Assembly (NCBI GenBank): GCA_024679065.1
Contig: JAGIQG010000024.1
Location: 18,910,001-18,974,000, forward strand
From: Sphyrna mokarran
Taxonomy: Eukaryota
Reading direction: 5' to 3'
DNA length: 64,000 nt
This document shows, piece by piece, positions 33,290 to 63,919 of this stretch; the first letter of the stretch is position 1, and each line of letters starts with the position of its first letter. The notes below the pieces were generated by a model that saw only the letters and a program-made list of their open reading frames with translations, was not told the origin of the DNA and ran no database searches. The position numbers and the translations under genes were made by a program.

Positions 33290-33657
33290 GTCTCATTGCA
33301 CAGTAGCAGCTGTGTGTACTATCTACAAGATGCAAAGCAGGAACTCGCCAAGGCTCCTTAAGCAGAATCTCCCAAACCCATAATTGCTAGCATTGAAAAG
33401 GAGAAGGGATATGGGAACACCACTACTTAGAAATTTACCTCCAAGCCACACACCATCCTGACTTGGAAATATGTTGCCGTTCCTACACTGTGACTGGATC
33501 AAAATTCTGGAACTCCCTCCCTAACAGTAGGCATCCCTACACCACAGTGGTTCAAGAAGGCAGCTTACAATCACTTTCTCAAGGGCAATTGAAATAGGCA
33601 ATGAATGCTAGCCTAGCCAGTGACACCTACATTCCCTGAATGAATAACAAAAAAAAT
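33290..33657 (+). mobile_element. 3' end of the jockey-like LINE
   Basis: Colinear with 17740-18090; A-rich end. Confidence 0.88.
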
Positions 33658-33659
33658 GA

Positions 33660-35560
33660 TGAATATGGAACTGTCTATGCCCAAAATTCCATCCCTTATG
33701 GTGTGTTTTGAGCCATCTGCTATATTCCCAGATTGCAAAGTGCTTGCAATGCTTTGAAGAGGCAATAGCAAGTTTTGCTGCCATGAAGGACAATAGGAAA
33801 ACAATTTTATTTCTTCAATATGACAGTAAAGAATTAGAAGACATTTTTGAAGCATAGCTGGGCAAAATGACTATGACTCAGATACAAGAGCACTAACATC
33901 CTGTTTTATGTCCAGGAAAAACACAAGAATGAAACAATCATTTTCAGATGCACAAAGGTAGATGTCAATTGACCAGTATCGCACACTCTTGAGGCAACCA
34001 AATGTGACTTTGATCTTTTGGAATAGGCTGAAAGGAAAATAAAAGCACAAATCATCAAAGATTGTCATTCCAGCTAACTATACCGAAAAGCACTTGAAAA
34101 AGACAGAAGGCTGCCAGGGTTGTTGGAGCGAGCAAGATCACAGTTGCTTTCCAAGTCCAGAATTACTGAAGTTGCGGCTGTCAAAAACCACACTTCAAGT
34201 TATACTCTTGCAAAGATGAATAATTGCTTACATACCAGTAAAGCTATTCCAGCAATGCCACAGAGAGCTGTGACTTGTCTACACAATGCTTCCTCTGCTA
34301 CAGTGTTTAACCACATTGAATGGAGTATTCTGCCAAATGCAAAGCTTATGGAAAGCTCAACCAGTTGGTTTGTGTTTATCAGGAAAATCAACTAATCAGA
34401 CAAATATTAACAGAAGGGTGCCACATTTGTGTGCCAAGGCAAAAGGGCAAGAGAATGGAGCCAATGCCGAGATGCATGATCCTGAACATAATTTTGTGCT
34501 CTTTCAGACAGAGAAGATAGCCACTGTGAGATTGGCCATTGGTTGCTCCCATGATACGGGAGAATCTGCACCCACTCCAGCACCTTCATTCACAACAACT
34601 TACCCTGCACGTGTGCATCTGACTATCAAACAATGATTGTCAGCAAGTTGCACAAGTGCCCATTTCAATCCTGAAAGAACCACTAAGCTCATTGTAGTTG
34701 CACGTTTGGTTAGAGTAAGTACAGTTGTTGGTGCATGTCTGATTAGCGTTAGGTACAGTTGTTGATGCATGTTTGGTTAGGGATAGGTATGGTTGTTGGT
34801 GCTAGTCTGATTAGGGTCAGGTATGGTCATTCATGTGGGCCTGGTTAGGATTAGATATCGTTGTTGATGCAGGTCTGCTTAGGGTTAGGTACAGTTGTTG
34901 GTGCAGATCTGGTTAGGATTGGGTATGGTTGTTGATGGTGGTCTAGTTAGGGTTAGATACAGTTGTTGGTGCAGTTTTAGTTAGGATTAGGTATGTTTGT
35001 TGGTGCAAATCCGGTTAGGGTTAGGTATGGTTGTAGATGCAGGTTTGGTTAGGATTAGGTACAGTTGTTGGTGGAGGTCTGGTTAGGATTAGCTGAGGTT
35101 CTCATATAAAAAGGCAAGGCAGGAATGTATCAATTGATGCAATAGCAAGTAAATCATTAACACCTGTAGAGCAGCGTTATTCACAACAGAGAGAAAAGTG
35201 CTCTCAATTGCATTTTTATCTCTATATGTGTGGAAGAAAGTTTGAAGCTATAGCCAATTATAAACAAGTAACCTTGTTGAATAATCCACATAGCAAACCA
35301 CCTACTGTAATAATGCATTGGATGCTCAAACTACAAGAGGATGGGTTCCATGTTGAGTGTCAGCCAGGGAAGCTCAACCCAGTGGACTATTGATTACATT
35401 TGTTGCCAACAGTCAATTATACTAATCGTGAGGAAACAACATCTTAACTGTGTAAGCTTAAATGCGTTGCCAAAATCTCTAAACTAGCTGGCACCAAACT
35501 GGAAACAAAACAAGATGCAGCACTCCAATAGAGTGTGATGGCTATCTAATCAAGAAACTG
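33660..35560 (+). mobile_element. Decayed Ty3/Gypsy element: gag fused to RNase H, with protease and RT missing
   Basis: gag words IDQYRTLL, KIKAQIIKDCHSS*LYRKALEKD...LLERARS; RNase H words AHFNPERTTKLIV, ASKSLTPVEQRYSQ, SKPP...WMLKLQ...QPGKLNPVDY. Confidence 0.88.
34691..35097. repeat. 34-bp minisatellite, 12 copies, containing GGTTAGG(G/A)TTAGG
   Basis: Consensus GTTGTTG(A/G)TGCAGGTCTGGTTAGG(G/A)TTAGGTACA; first copy 33 bp, then an exact 34-bp period from 34724. Confidence 0.95.
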
Positions 35561-35562
35561 GA

Positions 35563-37560
35563 AAGAGATAAAAACAGAAAATGCTGGTAGAACTCAGGAC
35601 TGGAATTTTACCACCTCGGCCGCCATGCAAGGTTCGCAGAATAGAAATCTCCAATGGTCATGGGTGGGATTTTAAGATCTCACCAACCGAGGTCATAAAA
35701 TCCCACCCAGCATATCTGGCAGCATCTGTGAAGAGCAAAAGAGAGTTAACATTTTGGGACCGTATGAGTCTCCTTCAGAACTGAAGAGAGATAGGAATGT
35801 GATGGGAATTATGCTGTTGCAAAATGCAGGAGGGGCAAGTGGTGCAAAATAGAAAGTCAGGGATAGGTTAAAGGGTGTGGAAGGTTAAATGACAAAGGTG
35901 TAAAGGAACACAAGACAAAAGGAGTGGTAATGTTAGAATAAAGACAAAGGGTGCGATCTTACCAGCCGTTCACACCACACTCCCGTTGCAGCAAGGTCAG
36001 GGAATTTGGCAGCCAGCCAACTTTCTGTTCACTGCAGTGGGAAGGGAAAAGAAAATGGTGATAAGATTCTGGCCAAAAGCTTTGGCACGGAGAAGGTGTT
36101 AATAGCAGGACAAAGCCAGCATTGTCTGAAAGCAAAATAGCATAATGTGTTAATAGCAGAGATAGAGTCAGTGTTGCCTGAAAGCAAAAATATGAGGACA
36201 AAATATGGATTGGCACTTGGAGGGAAAAGTCAGAATGGAAGACAGATTTCATGGTCTGAAGTTATTGAATTCAATGCTGAGCCCAGAGGATTAAACAATT
36301 GGAAAGTTGGTGTCATGCTTGCAGATTGAGTGAAGATATTCCCTAAAGTGTTCACCCAGTTTGCGTTTAGTTTCCCCAGTGTAGAGGAAACCACACTGTG
36401 AGCAGTGAAGGCAGTAGACTAAATTGAATGAAGTGCAAGTTCACCTAAAAGGAAAGCTTGAGGTGTTGGAACCAAGAGGGGGGAGGAGATAAAGGAGTTA
36501 CACCTTCAGTAATTCCATGGGAAGGTGCCCTGAGAAAGGAACAAGAAGTTGGGTGAGATAAAGGAATGTCACAGAGGGAACAGTCCTTTCAGATTGCTGA
36601 TATGGGAGGTGAGCGAGAGATGTTCTCAGTTGTGGCATCATACCGGAGTTAGCAGAAATGAGGGAGGATGATCCTTTGAATATGCATGTTGGTGGGGTAG
36701 AAAGAAAGGTCAAGAGGTGGTAGGGGAAGTGGTAAGAAGTGTGGGAAATAGAGCGGAAATAAGAATCCTTGGCTGAGGGAAAAGGAAAAGATGTAAAAAG
36801 ATTCACCATGGAAGGCAGCATCATCAAAATACAAATGACAGAGATGGAGAAAATGGAAGAGTGGAATGGAGTCCTAACAGGAAACAGGGTGTGTAGAGGT
36901 GTAGTTGTGGTAACTGTGAGAGTTGGTGGGCTTGGAATGAATACTGGGAAACAGTCTGTCATCAGAGATAGAAACAAAGAGAGGCCAAGGAAGGAAGGGA
37001 AGCTTGGGAGATGGAGCATATGACGATGAGAGAAAGGTGGAAATAGGAAACAATGTAAAGAATATTTTACAGGTTGAGAAGAGAGGATGAAATAGCACTG
37101 ATACAGTCATTGCTGTACCAGAAAAATAGGAATGGAACACAAAGTGCTCACATCGCACAAGAAGACAGGCATGCAGCTATCCATAACCACTCCTTTTATT
37201 GGGAGAATTGTGACAAGTTAAAGGAGAAATTGTTCAATTAGAGAATAAGTTCAGCCAGTCAAAGAAGGGTGCTGGTGAACAGGGATTGTTCGAACCTTTG
37301 TTCATGAAAGAAGTGGAGAACCTCAGACTGTCCTGGTGGGGACGGAGGTGTAAAGGAATTGTTCATCCATAATGAATAGCAATGGTTGGAGCCAGGGAAC
37401 TGGAAATTGTTGAAATAATATTTAGGGCATCTGACAAGTCACAAATGTAGGTGGAAATGAACTGGACAAGAGGAGAGAAAATAGAGTCAAACTGGAGAGG
37501 AATAAATTCAATTGAGCACTAATAGATTGAAATGATGATCGAACAGGACAGAGAGTTATG
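35563..37560 (-). mobile_element. Penelope-like element, decayed (RT end, GIY-YIG, pseudo-LTR)
   Basis: Reverse translation near 36310-36440: TCTSFNLVYCLHCSQCGFLYTGETKRKLGEHFREYLHSI (GIY-YIG endonuclease). Confidence 0.9.
35598..35707. mobile_element. Harbinger-type MITE nested in the Penelope pseudo-LTR
   Basis: GACTGGAATTTTA ... TAAAATCCCACC flanked by CAG/CAG; removing it restores ACTCAGCA..TCTGGCAGCATCTGTG. Confidence 0.8.
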
Positions 37561-42990: not shown

Positions 42991-43525
42991 GCTAATGAGT
43001 TAGGCTTAATCCAATATCCTCTTTCTAACAGACTTCAACATTATCTAATGAGGCATTTGATGAATCACGGTTCTGTGGTTACCTTACTTCGAATCCCAGG
43101 AGCTGCTGTCCAAATAAATCAGTCTAAGCTTTCTGAAATACAACTCTCTGTCTGGGTAAAATCACCAACCTTCTTGCATTGCCCTGGCATCTCCAGAATT
43201 AAAGACAAACATCTAGGATGCTGCTCTGAGCAGCCCAGGGGACTCATTTTTTTAGACAAAGCCTTTTGCCAAAATCTTGCTGTCTTTTGTGCTGACAGGA
43301 TATTACAATGGTGCATCCCACCATGGGTTTCCCAATGGAGAGAGGGTCATTCAATGGGTAACCCCATTAAGAACGAGGAGACTGTAAGATTCCACCGTCA
43401 ATGAGTGGTGCATCACCTCCCAGCACCGTGAAACAGGCCACAGAGAGAGAAAAATCCTGCCCTGAGTTTTTGAACATAACATTGTTTTAACACATTGGGA
43501 ATCATAGAAACATGGCCAGGAAGCC

Positions 43526-44557
43526 ATGAAGGTGAGAGGCCATGGGATCCAAGGGGCTTTGGCCTTGTGGATCCAGAACTGGCTTGCCTGCAGAAGGCAG
43601 AGGGTGGTTGTGGATGGCTCTTTTTCTGCATGGAGGTCGGTCACCAGTGGAGTGCCCCAGGGATCTGTTCTAGAACCCTTGCTGTTTGTCATTTTCATAA
43701 ATGACCTGGATGAGGAAGTGGAGGGATGGGTGAGTAAGTTCGCCGATGACACGAAGGTCGGTGGTGTTGTGGATGGTCTGGAGGGATGTCAGAAGTTGCA
43801 GCATGACATCGACAGGATGCAAGACTGGGCGGAGAAGTGGCAGATGGACTTCAACGCGGATAAATGTGTTGTGGTCCATTTTGGCAGATCCAACGGGATG
43901 AATGAGTACACGATCAAAGGTAGGAGTCTTAGCTGTGTGGAAGAGCAGAGGGATCTTGGGGTCCGGGTCCATAAGACTCTCAAATCGGCCTCCCAGGTGG
44001 AGGATGTGGTTAAGAAAGCTTACGGTGTACTGGCCTTCATTCATCGAGGGATTGAGTTCAGGAGTCAGGAGGTAATGCTGCAGCTTTATAGGACCCTTGT
44101 CAGACCACACTTGGAGTACTGTGCGCAGTTCTGGTCGCCTCACTATAGGAAGGACGTGGAAGCTATTGAAAGGGTGCAGAGGAGATTTACAAGGATGTTG
44201 CCTGGATTGGGAGGCATGCCTTATGAAGACAGGTTGAGGGAGCTGGGACTGTTCTCCCTGGAGAGACGAAGGTTGAGAGGCGACCTGATAGAGGTTTACA
44301 AGATGTTGAGAGGAATAGATAGGGTGGACTCTCAGAGACTATTTCCCAGGGCTGAAATGGTCGCGACGAGAGGGCACAGATTTAAGGTGCAGGGAAGCAA
44401 GTACAGAGGGGATGCTAGGGGAAAGTTTTTCACTCAGAGGGTGGTGAGTGAATGGAATCGGCTGCCGTCGGTGGTGGTCGAGGCGAACTCGCTGGGGTCT
44501 TTTAAAAGACTTCTGGATGAGTATATGGGATCCAATGGGATTGGGGGTTATAGATAG
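43526..44557 (+). CDS. CR1 LINE ORF2, C-terminal 343 aa of reverse transcriptase (young, 5'-truncated; 3' UTR to ~44642)
   Basis: Uninterrupted frame with [22 protein letters not shown]-like EEQRDLGV, RPHLEYCAQFWSP, ERVQRRFTRM; CpG-rich; tail GTTCTATGTTCTATG. Confidence 0.97.
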   Translation: MKVRGHGIQGALALWIQNWLACRRQRVVVDGSFSAWRSVTSGVPQGSVLEPLLFVIFINDLDEEVEGWVSKFADDTKVGGVVDGLEGCQKLQHDIDRMQDWAEKWQMDFNADKCVVVHFGRSNGMNEYTIKGRSLSCVEEQRDLGVRVHKTLKSASQVEDVVKKAYGVLAFIHRGIEFRSQEVMLQLYRTLVRPHLEYCAQFWSPHYRKDVEAIERVQRRFTRMLPGLGGMPYEDRLRELGLFSLERRRLRGDLIEVYKMLRGIDRVDSQRLFPRAEMVATRGHRFKVQGSKYRGDARGKFFTQRVVSEWNRLPSVVVEANSLGSFKRLLDEYMGSNGIGGYR

Positions 44558-53491: not shown

Positions 53492-54679
53492 TCTTCCGTC
53501 TTTCCGACATAAGACTCAGCTCATAAAAGATTCCAAGCGCAGAATTTTTCCTGTGAGCTCCAGGACTCCAACGTGGCTGACAGCTGGAAAGCTGATTTTT
53601 GTTTTGTTCAGTTTTTTTACTCAATTTAATAAAGTGCCAGATCTGCCCATTCCCCAGCCTCCATCCTCATTCTGAGGGTGACAGATCTGACTTTTAATCT
53701 AGCACACCATTTCATATACATGGATGTCAGTCTCTATTAGTATATATGTATATATTGAACTGATTTGATATGTTATTTCACATTGCATCTGAAGATGTTG
53801 TATTCTTCCTAAATTTCCATCATGGGGAACACCGTTCTTAACAGCATTCCTGCGCTGTATACCAGTTTTCCTCACTGGTATGCTGCATCCAGGTGAGATC
53901 TTTGTAAACAAAGTAATTTCCTCTGCAGCCTCTTGAGAGTGGATGGTAGTGGTTTGCAAAAATGTTCTAAAGAGGCTTGTGGTCGGACTCCACTATCATG
54001 ATGCCATTCCCAAGCAAAAACAATAGTCAGGCTCTTCTCAATCTGAGCAAGGTACCATTCCGTTTGCGTTAGTGCCCTGGATATAAATGCAACTGGTTGT
54101 CCTGGCTGCTTCAATGTTGCTCCCAGATCCATCTTGCTGGCATCAGACTGCAAGGTGACATCGCCAGTGCCATCACAGTACTTCAGCAATGGCACTGAAG
54201 TCACTGGTGGTTTGATTTGAGAGAACGCTGTTTCTTATTCTGTTCCCCAAAACCACAGAACTTCCTTGGCACTGAGCTTGTGTAATGATCCACATTTGGC
54301 TGACAAATTAGGCACAGACTTAGATAAATAGTTCTGAAATACCATCGCATTTCTTTCATCTCTGTTGTTGCTGCATTACTGCTCTTATTTTCACCTTGTC
54401 AGGATCCAGGCAAAGACCTTTGTCTGTCAACACGTGACCTACATACTTGATTTCAGGTACTTTCAGTTGCAAGATTTTCTTGTTCAGCTTCAGATTCATC
54501 TAATGATGAATCCTTTAGCAGTTGTATTAAATTCTGATCATGGTTAGCTATGCATCATGTCTCTACATCTATAAGCAAATATATCACTGCTCTAACCTCC
54601 ACTCTGGGAGGGCCACTGATTATCTCATGTTTTTTGCATTGATACTCTTCTGATCTGTAGAAATTTCAACAGTATGCTT

Positions 54680-57834: not shown

Positions 57835-60800
57835 GTAAGACCATAAGATGTAATAGCAGAAGTTGGCTATTAGAACTATTGAGTCTGCTCCATCATACAA
57901 TGAGGTCATGATTAATCAGATAAAATCATCAACTCCACTTTCCTGCCTTATCCCCATAACCCTTGATTCTATTACTGATTGTAAATCTGTCTATCTCAGC
58001 TTTGAACATACCATTTACTACAGTTTACTGCAGTAAAGAATTCTGCTGGACCATTCCCCTCTGAGAGACGAAATTCCTCCGCATCTTTGTCTTAAATGAG
58101 TGATTCCTTACTTTAAGATTACACCCCTGGTTCTAGATTCTTCCGCAAGGGCAACAACCTCTCAGCATTTATCTTATCAAACCTCCCATGCCTCAATCAA
58201 GTTATCTCTAATGAATAGAGGCCCAACCCACTCAATCTTTCCTTGCAAGAAAATCCTTCCATACCTGAGTTCACCTTAATGAATTTTCTCTGGGCTGCCT
58301 CCAATGCCAGTATATCTTTCCTTAGAGAAGAGGAGCAAAACTGTTTACACTATTCCAGGTATGGTCTAACTAGTGTCTTGTATAATTTTAACAAGACTTT
58401 CTACTTATAAACTTCCATTCTTCTGAAAATAAAGGCCAACAATACATTGTATTAGCCAATAGTTACCTGTTTGTTAATCTCCCTCCCCTTTTAAATAAGG
58501 GTGTTACATTGGCAGCTTTCCAATCTTCATGGATTTTCCACACTTTAAGGGACCTTGGAAAATTATTATCAGTGCATCCACTATGGCTGTAGCTACTTTC
58601 TTTAATATTCTGTGATGCAATCCATTAAGTCCAGGGGACTTTTCAGCTTTTAGTCCCATTAGTTTCCCCAGCACTTCATCTCTAATGATAGTTACCATAT
58701 TTATTTCCTCCCCAACAACACCACTATCACCCCCTCCTCCACCCCTCCCCCACCACCCCTCCAACTCCCAACACATATTTGCTCTTTGCTTCTTTAGTAT
58801 TTTTTGGAATATTATTTGTGTCTTCCATCATGAAAATTGATGCAAAATATTTGTTTAACTCCTCTGCCATTTCCTCGTTCCCCATTATTATTTCCCCAGT
58901 CTCATTCTTTAAGGGGCTTATGTTTATCTTGGCCTCCCTTTTGCTTTTTATATATTTAAGGAACCTGTTTTTATATCCTTGCTAGTTTATCCTCATAGTT
59001 TACCTTCTCCCTCTTTTTTTCATCATTTTTTGTTGGTTTTTATAACTTCTTCAGTCTTTTGACTTATCACTACATTTTGTCACATTGTATGTGTTTATCT
59101 TTCAGTATTAATATCATCCTTAACTTTCTTGTTTTGCCATGCTTGACTTATCCCTTCCTAGAATCTTTCAGCCTCACTGGGATATACTCTTGCCGTGAGT
59201 CATGAACTATTTTTATAAATATCTGCCATTGCTAACCAACTGCCTATCCTATTAATCTCTTTTCCTAGTTCACTCCAGCTAACTCTGTTCTCATTCCTTT
59301 ATTATTGTTCCATTTTAAGTATAGTACAATTGTTACTGAATCAAGATTCTTACTCCCAAACTGAATGCTGAATTCTACCATGTTATGGTCACTATTTCCT
59401 AAAGATTCTTTTGTACTGCGACTGTTTATTAAACCTGTCTCATTACATATTAACAGATCCAAAATAGCCTGATCCCTGAGTCCATAATACATTGTTCTAG
59501 GAATACACTCTATGAATTCTTCCTCATGACTATCTCTGCCAATTTGATTTTCCCAATTTACATGAAGATTGAAGTCATCTATAATTAAATTATTGCCTTT
59601 TTTTACATGCTCTTATTATCCCATGATTTATTCTTCATCCAACACAGTAGTTACTGTTAGGGAGCCATTAGACTACTCCCACCAGTGTCTTCTTCCCCTT
59701 GTTTTTTCTCACTTCCACTATATGGATTCTACATCTTCTTGCTATTCTATTTATTCCAGCTTGTACTAACAAAGCAATCTCACTATCTTTTCCTTCCTGC
59801 CTGTCCTTACAAGAAGTCACATACCTTGAATATTTAGTTTATTGCTTTGAAATCCTTGTGACTTTGTCTCTACAATGACAAGAAGATCATATCCATTAAC
59901 CTCAATTTGTGCCATTGATTCATTTATTTTCTGTTGAATACTATGTGCATTTAAGTAAAGAATCCTTAATTTTATCTTGTTATCATTTTTCCCTTTCTTG
60001 ATCCTAATTGTTGGTTTTCTTAATGTTTGTACATTCTGTCCCTTCCTGTCACACTCTGAGTATCATTACCTAAATAGCTGCTTTGTAATGCTGCCATATC
60101 CGTTTACTTTGAAAGCCTACATAATCCCTCTCCAGAACCATCCCTCTCTCTATTTCGTTTAAAGCTCTCTCTACTTCCACAGTTATGTGGCTTGCAACAA
60201 CACTGCACAGTTCAGGTGTAGACCGTCCCAATGGTATCCCACTTTCCCCATCTTCTACCAGTGTCTTATGAAACAAAACTCACTTCTCCAACACCATTCT
60301 TTGAGCAATGTATTAATCCCTCTAATTTTATGTACCCTCTGCCAATTTGCATGTCATTTATGTAATAATTCAGAGATTATAACCTTGGATGTTGTGTTGT
60401 TTAATTTAGTGCCTAGCTCCTCAAACCTTCTATTCAGAAACTCTTTACTCATTCTACCCATGCTGTTGGTACCTACATGGACCACAACAACAGGATCCTC
60501 CTCCTCCCATTGTAAGTTCCTCTCTAGCCCAGAACAGATGTCCCAAACCCTGGCACTGGGCAGGCAACACAGCCCTCTAGGCTCTCACTCCTTGCTAAAC
60601 AGATGAGTACCAATCCCCCTCCCTACACTGTCCCCTACTATCACTATCATCTATGCACTTGAATGGCTTCCTGTCTCGGAACACAATAGTAAGTCAGCTC
60701 ATTCAGCTTGCAACCTCCACTCTCATCCAAACAAGCTGTTGGACAATCACAGAGCTGGCATTCCTGCCCTCTTACTCCTCCTGGAATCCTTACTTGCCTA

Positions 60801-62075: not shown

Positions 62076-62820
62076 TACTGATCAACTGTGGAATAGCATT
62101 GTAGAAGTCCAGCTGACAATATGGATTGTTTCATTCGGATGGCTAATTTGGAAGTCAACCAAAAAAAAAATCTTTCATAACTTTACAAACTCAAGTAAAC
62201 AACACAGTAACAAAAGGATATTAAAATATTTATTTGCATCGTCTGAGAAGGCTGGATGCACTCTAATTGAGTGTAAATTTTTCATATGCCTTATTTTTAT
62301 ATCTTGCTATTTGTGGTAAATATGCAGGCAGGAGCAGTTGAAGCATAGTACCATGTTTTTCAGAATGTTCCCTCACCAGAATATTACCCAGGAAATAAGA
62401 AATTACAGCAACTTCTATCTCCTGTGTAAGTATAGTGCTGACAATCACCCACCCCTGCCACCACACCAATCTCACCACAGGATACCTCAGCTTCCTTTCC
62501 TCCCATCCCCAGCTACTCCCCACATGTCCAGCTAATCCTGACTACCTCACCAGCTTCTAGCTGTACCTCTATCCTGACAGCCATCGTCCAACTAATTGCC
62601 AACTTGCTGACTAACCACGCGACCCCTGATTACAACCCCATCCCCGAGTATAGATATCCATCCCCCTTACTACCCTTCCTACCTCCAAACCATAGCTACC
62701 CCATGACTATCTCTACCCCCAGATACTCCCCTCCCCGATTTAACTTTGACCTTCAAACTGATCACTAAGCCCTCAACCACTGACGATCAAACCCCTCATG
62801 ACCCATCCTGTTCCCTGTGC

Positions 62821-62997
62821 TGACCACTGACTACCCCCATTGACCACCAAACACACACATTAATCCCTCCAACTGACCCACTTGTCCCCCTCCACTGACC
62901 ACTGACTGCCCCCATTGACCATCAAACACACACATTAATCCCTCCAACTGACCCACTTGTCCCCCTCCACTGACTACTGACTACCCCCATTAACCAC
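62821..62997. repeat. 75-bp tandem duplication (2.3 copies) in a C/A-rich low-complexity tract (~62440-63450)
   Basis: 62821-62895 and 62896-62970 differ at 2 positions. Confidence 0.92.
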
Positions 62998-63919
62998 TCA
63001 ACATCCACAATGCCACCTCCCCAGTGATCTGCTCTCTGCCACTGATAATCCGACTGACCTTCAATGACCATCCGATGATGTTAATCACTGCTACCCATAC
63101 TCCCCAACTGGCCACCTGACCTGTCCCAACTCCCAACTGACAACACTCCACCGCCCCACTGACCAACTAACCTTCTGCTACTGATGAACCAATCGCTGTC
63201 AACTGACCACACAAACCTCTCCCCATTGACCATGCAACCACCGTCCCTCACCATCCAACTGATTTCCCTTCATTGACCATCTGCCCTCTCCCCACCACTG
63301 ACCATCCTAACCCTGCTCGACCATCCAAACCCTCAACTATCAATTCCCCCCCCAAACCATCTGATTCCTACTTAGCCATCCAACTCCTTCCCTAACAACT
63401 TGACCCACTCCTATGACTGACCACCTGACCCATCCCCATTTTATCCACTTACCTTATACACTGGCATTTGCAGAAATTTGCCGCCTCACCTGCCTGAGGT
63501 TCATGAGATCCTGCCCAAGGTCAATAGAAAGTTCAGCAAGCCTCACCTGCCCCGATTCTGTGATGGGTGAGGTGGTAAAACTGCAGACATCCTTCTCAGA
63601 ATAACTGGGATCTTTAGACTTGTCTACATTACAGCAGCAAATGTTGTGTAACAGGGGACATGGCTTTCTTTTCACCAGTTCTTCTGCACTCGACTGATAG
63701 CCTCAGTTATGGCTGCACTTGTTCTATTCTCACCTAGCCTGAGTTGAAAGGTCAGGTAGGAAATGTGTAGCTACATTTTATTGTGTGTAAAAAGAAGTGG
63801 AATGACAATCGACTGTGACTGCTAATCTAAGTACCTGAACATGCACATACTGGAGATACAAAGAGAAAACATCAAAAAAAACATGTAAAACCATTAAAAA
63901 ATGATGATTTGGAAAAAAA

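What the first reader, a model, noticed from the sequence alone, without database searches (positions are those of the whole stretch)
34660..35200. Telomere-like minisatellite apparently born from the RNase H catalytic motif of a Gypsy element
Seen: twelve 33/34-bp units sit exactly between AHFNPERTTKL (upstream) and GLAEVLI...ASKSLTPVEQRYSQ (downstream). Removing one base from the unit gives GTT GTT GAT GCA GGT CTG GTT GGA TTA GGT ACA = VVDAGLVGLGT. One copy keeps CCG GTT (PV), and the first copy is the codon-compatible 33 bp. Known: Ty3/Gypsy RNase H carries the IVDASPVGLGA motif, with the first catalytic Asp, at this position. Inference: the motif was tandemly amplified after a 1-bp insertion that created GGTTAGG(G/A)TTAGG telomere-like hexamers, which may have promoted the expansion. 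This would be a rare case where the coding origin of a minisatellite is still readable.
Basis: partly seen in the sequence, partly recalled or inferred. Interest (0 to 1): 0.7.

Follow-up and report, generated by a model that had tools for sequence, protein, structure and literature searches.

The report
Minisatellite born from retrotransposon catalytic motif
Twelve copies of a 34-base repeat come from the stretch of a dead jumping gene that once coded for its RNase H active site; the repeat is shared with related species, likely arose by ordinary copying slips after the gene died, and its telomere-like letters are probably incidental.

Summary
The array is real (34692-35098; one 33-bp and eleven 34-bp units, 77% alike) and its origin is shown. 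Other genomic copies of this Gypsy-type family most often hold 26-28 bp where the window holds 401. The units match that single-copy segment, which carries the RNase H first catalytic Asp (Ty3 D358). No second array turned up in this genome. Orthologous arrays occur in samples from four other studies, 2-8% different in the flanks, with gains or losses of 34, 68 and 102 bp. It is an old, slowly changing minisatellite. A telomere-driven expansion is unproven: no (TTAGGG)2, no three-tier G4 motif, weak folding score, and about one such array is expected by chance among thousands of dead copies. The G/T skew and three TRF-type sites keep that idea open. Repeats born from transposons, coding parts included, are well known; this scan noted a similar case in another genome (e1-9140075). 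New member of a known kind; interest 0.3.

The parts
33301..34548 (+). 5' part of the dead LTR-retrotransposon copy (gag-like and protease-like region; many stops and frameshifts)
   Evidence: 63-74% DNA matches to other genomic copies, several of which also hold the RNase H part downstream; no Pfam hit; the gag/protease label rests on position and recalled motif resemblance
34548..34625 (+). Junction of an internal deletion of about 1.3-1.4 kb (likely most of the reverse transcriptase), shared with orthologs
   Evidence: 77-89 bp here against 1,444 and 1,400 bp in copies L089 and L097; contig of run X3 runs through 34100-34674; RT motifs in the copies seen by eye only, Pfam gave 0 hits in 12 frames
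34625..34691 (+). Left flank: end of the connection region and start of RNase H
   Evidence: 72-89% identity to other copies; the same stretch in copies maps to PF17917 from position 1
34692..34724 (+). Unit 1, 33 bp; carries the array's extra base and has lost another base in this lineage
   Evidence: orthologous unit is 34-type in runs X3, X6, X4
34725..35098 (+). Units 2-12, 34 bp each, derived from the RNase H DAS-motif segment; last 6 bases of unit 12 decayed in this lineage
   Evidence: orthologs keep the family-like end at 35093-35097
34879..35023 (+). Three exact TTAGGGTTA sites (34879, 34947, 35015), 68 bp apart; the only ones in the 64-kb window
   Evidence: named as the TRF1/TRF2 Myb site in PMC3241663; binding untested
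35099..35571 (+). Right flank: rest of RNase H and linker; the copy breaks off here at a high-copy repeat, no integrase or LTR found
   Evidence: PF17917 34-104; DNA matches to copies up to 35566-35571 and no LTR pair in 28-42 kb; depth jump at 35558

Best explanation
This is a single-locus minisatellite whose unit is the RNase H first-catalytic-Asp segment of a dead Gypsy-type retrotransposon copy, likely amplified in place in the host chromosome after the copy had died and likely without function. Shown: homology of unit and motif, one extra base in all units, single locus, presence in related organisms, unit gains and losses between them, CpG decay among units. Inferred: (1) the copy first took up the extra base and two residue-changing substitutions in the motif; (2) a first duplication was seeded by 2-4 bp of identity at the segment ends (replication slippage, flap processing or unequal exchange); (3) further unequal exchanges built 12 or more units well before the sampled lineages split; (4) since then the array has drifted slowly. 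The TTAGG period is a by-product of Val-Gly-Leu-Gly codons plus one base.
For: Of 49 other loci, 32 hold both anchors; the commonest distance is 27 bp (10), then 26 (4), against 401 = 27 + 11 x 34 here; none holds an array there. In 19 copies with a 25-30 bp gap the units match best exactly at that segment among about 6,300 places in 9, and within the top 5 in 15. The motif's Asp aligns, through a better kept copy, with chain position 360 of Ty3 RT 4OL8, which is D358 given a two-residue offset (inferred; catalytic residues from PMC5371799). Five majority differences between units and 15 copies fall on third codon positions, as expected of coding ancestry; the changes at the Ser and Pro codons and the extra base are shared by most or all units, so they came first. 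The array and its junction motif were found only here. Orthologs differ 1.5-8% in flanks and 2.6-11.8% in the array, while units differ 22-24% from each other. Positions 32-33 read CA in 5 and TG in 5 of units 1-11, and CG in orthologs. Rough chance expectation: 1 array of this size class in 283 kb of background times 6,549 candidate RNase H relics x 33 bp gives about 0.8.
Against: Microhomology is short and seen only in other copies (4 bp in 4 of 15; chance 2.4% per site), below the 5-10 bp of the Haber and Louis model, and the window's own left edge keeps only 2 bp. Changes shared by all units could also come from later homogenisation. The unit is unusual: G+T share in the top 1.3% and G4Hunter in the top 10% of background 34-mers, TTAGGnTTAGG absent from 283 kb of background, and the TTAGG core varies less than the rest (9% against 18%, Fisher p 0.036; p 0.16 without the CpG columns; column permutation p 0.078). 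The chance estimate rests on one background array (95% range 0.03-5.6) and on unscored candidates. No close relative of this copy was found (best 65-80%), so the founder state was not seen.
Confidence: 0.8

Rival explanations
1. Same origin, but the new TTAGG(G/A)TTAGG and the G-rich, C-poor strand drove the expansion, through two-tier G-quadruplex stalling or binding of telomere proteins.
For: The only amplified copy is the only one with the dimer (0 in 87 background loci). G4Hunter mean 0.55 in units against -0.21 to 0.36 in 15 copies; five G2-type motifs. Three TTAGGGTTA sites; orthologs read G at two more units (34986, 35088), so more units may once have held TTAGGG. Slight excess conservation of the core.
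Against: No (TTAGGG)2, no G3 four-tract motif, best 25-nt G4Hunter 1.04. G4-driven minisatellite instability needs short loops and G-triplets (PMC5491262 passages); loops here are 3 nt between G2-G3 runs. TRF binding at interstitial sites depends on length and conservation (PMC6410037 passage). The array has changed by only a few units between species. The pattern was picked after the fact from one case.
Confidence: 0.12
2. The array was made by reverse-transcriptase stuttering or template switching during the retrotransposition that created this copy.
For: Units are old: 22-24% apart, not far below the 29% between this copy and its family. Younger transposon families yield more tandem repeats, which the authors link to retrotransposition (PMC3389668).
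Against: Units share residue-changing substitutions in the catalytic motif and a frameshifting base, which points to a decayed founder. No other copy carries an array (0 of 49). Unit gains and losses went on in the chromosome.
Confidence: 0.05
3. The telomere-like part was written by telomerase during break repair inside the motif (a one-hexamer interstitial telomeric insertion replacing five bases), or the whole array is a foreign satellite inserted there.
For: TTAGG pre-exists in 5 of 15 copies and could prime telomerase; short interstitial telomeric sequences exist (PMC6410037; the telomerase-repair paper seen only as a title in its reference list).
Against: One added base and one synonymous-position difference explain the stretch. 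A foreign satellite is excluded by the homology of the whole unit to the motif and by its absence elsewhere; among 100 of 111 listed matches to a paired telomere-dimer pattern nearly all others are telomere-type arrays.
Confidence: 0.03

Closest known systems
Transposon-derived minisatellites (Ahmed and Liang 2012, PMC3389668, passages read; Jurka and Gentles 2006 seen only through it)
   Same: Tandem array grown in place from a piece of a transposon copy, single locus, expanded after insertion; 7,276 of 31,472 human minisatellites examined were of this kind, 1,597 from ERVs.
   Different: Here the parent is the catalytic motif of a Gypsy-type RNase H, the array has 12 old, diverged units (their set required 95% unit identity and Alu-derived arrays average about 2.3 units), and orthologs date its changes.
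Satellites from transposon ORFs (chicken HinfI from CR1 ORF2, Phodopus PROsat from L1 ORF2, rye satellite from gag; review PMC9659126, section 2.2 read)
   Same: Repeat monomer taken from coding DNA of a retrotransposon.
   Different: Those spread as satellites away from the parent; this one stays inside the parent with both flanks in register. The review does not mention RNase H (0 occurrences).
Microhomology-mediated tandem duplication / Haber and Louis model (PMC13167724 passages; Haber and Louis 1998 seen only through PMC3389668)
   Same: Duplication of a segment bounded by short identical ends.
   Different: Only 2-4 bp of identity here, seen in other copies, against 5-10 bp in the classic model.
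Short interstitial telomeric sequences and G4 minisatellites such as CEB1/CEB25 (PMC6410037, PMC5491262, passages)
   Same: TTAGGG hexamers inside a chromosome arm; G-rich strand.
   Different: Never two full hexamers in a row, 22-bp non-telomeric spacers of coding origin, no three-tier G4 motif, low instability.

Membership tests
Transposon-derived minisatellite | Head-to-tail units of 10-60 bp | tested here: met
   12 units of 33-34 bp
Transposon-derived minisatellite | Unit homologous to a single-copy stretch of the element at the same position | tested here: met
   27 bp against 401 between anchors; best match at that segment in 9 of 19, top 5 in 15 of 19 copies
Transposon-derived minisatellite | Array not part of the element family itself | tested here: met
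   0 of 49 other loci; single locus in the genome searches, which are lower bounds
VNTR | Unit number varies between lineages | tested here: met
   13 units in the spanning contig of run X3; steps of 34, 68 and 102 bp
VNTR | Unit number varies among individuals of the species | not testable with these tools
   Only one run holds the near-identical sequence and it may be the source
Ty3/Gypsy LTR retrotransposon (parent) | Ty3/Gypsy-type RNase H with the DAS motif | tested here: met
   PF17917/PF17919 hits in 6 of 6 copies; alignment chain to Ty3 RT 4OL8, E 0.02 and 1e-8
Ty3/Gypsy LTR retrotransposon (parent) | Domain order gag-PR-RT-RH-IN and paired LTRs | tested here: inconclusive
   RT region deleted, no integrase, no LTR pair in 28-42 kb; clade not determined
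Interstitial telomeric sequence | Run of tandem TTAGGG hexamers | tested here: not met
   5 single TTAGGG, 0 (TTAGGG)2
Interstitial telomeric sequence | Binding of TRF1/TRF2 | not testable with these tools
   Three TTAGGGTTA sites present
G4-driven unstable minisatellite (CEB1/CEB25 type) | G-triplets with very short loops | tested here: not met
   No G3 four-tract motif, best G4Hunter 1.04; rule from PMC5491262
Haber and Louis minisatellite birth | 5-10 bp direct repeats at the segment ends | tested here: not met
   At most 4 bp, in 4 of 15 copies

The most novel reading that the evidence does not exclude
One inserted base turned the Val-Gly-Leu-Gly codons of a dead RNase H into a telomere-repeat dimer, and that new shelterin site or two-tier G-quadruplex is what made this one segment, out of thousands of dead copies, amplify and persist: a telomere-like interstitial element born from coding DNA without telomerase.
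Probability: 0.12. Interest if true: 0.6.

Novelty: new member of a known kind. Interest (0 to 1): 0.3.

Why it matters
Minisatellite birth is hard to study because the parent is usually lost; PMC3389668 could assign a mechanism to only 6% of transposon-derived repeats. Here the un-amplified segment survives in dozens of other copies and the array survives in several related organisms, so the order of events (decay, extra base, amplification, CpG decay, slow unit gain and loss) can be read. It is a clean teaching case and, with thousands of dead copies as matched controls, suggests a genome-wide test of whether G-rich or telomere-like founders are favoured. Nothing here points to a function.

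Tried and rejected
A 68-bp higher-order repeat: even-lag against odd-lag identity differs by 0.023, permutation p 0.063, and orthologs read G at two of the A units, so it is not established, although one lineage shows a 68-bp step. Hairpin folding of the array: z -0.14, no support. Direct structure-database searches with the window ORF, three decayed copies and their alignment found no RNase H; only a better kept copy reached Ty3 RT. Pfam did not detect RT in the upstream frames of four copies. The extra base as a junction insertion was rejected because it lies inside the unit and is present in unit 1. No host gene was seen in 42 of 71 long ORFs scanned; short exons were not sought. Literature searches listed no minisatellite from an RNase H motif; the library lacks most subscription journals, and Taylor and Breden 2000 was not held. 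A search for a printed TDAS motif found nothing.

Full report
Observation. Tandem Repeats Finder reports period 34, 11.8 copies at 34692-35092. The array splits into a 33-bp first unit and eleven 34-bp units ending at 35098, with 77% mean pairwise identity. A contig of run X1, possibly the source sample, is identical across the array. The window lies at 18.9 Mb of a contig that reaches at least 42 Mb, so it is not telomeric. The host is probably a shark or ray; that label comes from earlier notes of this scan and was not tested.

The parent. DNA searches of the genome gave 43 and 36 other matches; 49 distinct loci were examined, 32 with both anchors. The distance between anchors was 27 bp in 10, 26 in 4, 11-33 in most others, 141 in one with an unrelated insert, and negative in two with deletions; some values are projection errors. 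The window has 401 = 27 + 11 x 34. None of the 49 has an array there. Sliding units 2-11 along both strands of the 19 loci with a 25-30 bp gap put the best match at that segment in 9 and within the top 5 of about 6,300 places in 15; four ranked 83-577. Six of six copies tested hit PF17917/PF17919 across the motif. A better kept RNase H copy aligns with Ty3 reverse transcriptase 4OL8 (E 0.02), its DAS on the Ty3 TDAS at chain position 360, and aligns with a family copy (E 1e-8). With a two-residue offset, which I infer from the chain length and the downstream Glu, this is D358, one of the four catalytic residues (PMC5371799, one passage). The copy is a wreck: about 1.3-1.4 kb missing between 34548 and 34625, no integrase, no LTR pair.

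What changed before amplification. Against 15 of the 19 copies (four with one-base deletions left out), the best unpaired unit position is 21, an A in 10 of 10 units, also present in units 1 and 12. Five majority differences fall on third codon positions of the copies' frame, the mark of divergence between once-active subfamilies; two others change the Ser and Pro codons of the motif. The simplest reading is that the segment had already decayed when it was first duplicated; later homogenisation is the alternative. Segment ends share 4 bp in 4 of 15 copies (2.4% by chance per site) and 0-2 bp in the rest, a plausible but short seed.

Single locus. The array as a query found only itself, and its junction motif with one mismatch gave 5 matches, all in this array, against 2 for the reversed control. 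A paired telomere-dimer pattern gave 111 matches, 100 listed; apart from this array nearly all are telomere-type tracts. These searches are lower bounds.

Orthologs. Twelve runs from six studies hold part of the stretch; eight were laid, one of them possibly the source. Flanks differ by 1.5% (X2), 5.5-5.9% (X3) and 8% (X8); array pieces by 2.6-11.8%, partly through register shifts. One contig of X3 spans the array with 13 units: one fewer at the left, two more at the right, and a 24-bp deletion at the left edge. Runs X8 and X9 show a 102-bp step; their total is unknown. Units differ from each other by 22-24%, so amplification is much older than these splits, and the array has moved by only a few units since.

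The first unit in X3, X6 and X4 (one study, two samples) reads GGTTAGGAGTAGG, a 34-type unit that shares the distinctive G at position 25 with the window's unit 1; X8 has one extra letter in 34626-34782 (place not shown) and the X11 contig stops at 34713, where the gap lies. The 33-bp length is therefore a later loss. At 35012 all 7 runs from other samples read T, including X2 and X11, whose contigs are anchored in the right flank, so the CCG is new. Orthologs also keep the family-like end of unit 12, and read C at 34790 and 34824, giving CG where the window's units read CA (5) or TG (5): CpG decay after amplification.

Telomere-likeness. The array has 5 TTAGGG, 5 TTAGGA, no (TTAGGG)2, no G3 four-tract motif, G4Hunter 0.55 on average and 1.04 at best. 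TTAGG pre-exists in 5 of 15 copies. For a role: the dimer is absent from 87 background loci, the G+T skew is in the top 1.3%, three TTAGGGTTA sites are present (Myb site per PMC3241663, passages), and the core is slightly less variable (p 0.036, falling to 0.16 without CpG columns). Against: the rules for G4-driven instability (PMC5491262, passages) and for TRF binding at interstitial sites (PMC6410037, passages) are not met, the array is quiet, and about 0.8 such arrays are expected by chance over 6,549 candidate RNase H relics, on a background of one array in 283 kb.

Known kinds. Transposons gave 7,276 of 31,472 human minisatellites examined (PMC3389668, passages), and ORF-derived satellites are on record (PMC9659126, section 2.2 and passages). 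Microhomology-mediated tandem duplication is a general, mostly neutral process (PMC13167724, passages). Searches listed no case from an RNase H motif; supplements were not consulted. This scan noted a satellite from a reverse-transcriptase motif in another genome (e1-9140075; unchecked).

Verdict. A real, well-traceable, old minisatellite born from the RNase H catalytic segment of a dead Gypsy-type copy; new member of a known kind; interest 0.3. The telomere-driven reading keeps about 12%.

Noticed in passing
window 53875-54234 (-): A second, separate Gypsy-type RNase H relic (PF17919, E 1.4e-12).
   Followed up: no
window 43508-44554 (+) and 59268-59612 (-): Reverse transcriptase ORF of 349 aa (PF00078, E 1.7e-12) and a weak endonuclease hit (E 0.006), likely LINE relics.
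   Followed up: no
window 62820-63001: C-rich 75-bp repeat, 2.4 copies, 94% alike, inside a longer C-rich degenerate tract.
   Followed up: no
L123:3020-3300: A young 51-bp x 5.5 minisatellite (96% alike) about 1.2 kb from another Gypsy RNase H relic; its origin was not examined.
   Followed up: no
L011, L014, L046, L058, L042 (motif region): Several other copies have small deletions or an insertion within the same DAS-motif segment; whether this exceeds other parts of the element was not tested.
   Followed up: no
G000:C224:81268496-81269166 (L076, L077): Telomere-type array about 8.5 Mb inside a contig that also has such arrays at about 0.6 kb and 89.8 Mb: a possible fusion relic or mis-join.
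   Followed up: no
G000:C794:48707560-48707633 and C916:3595-11233: Telomere-variant repeats with short non-telomeric spacers, apparently subtelomeric.
   Followed up: no
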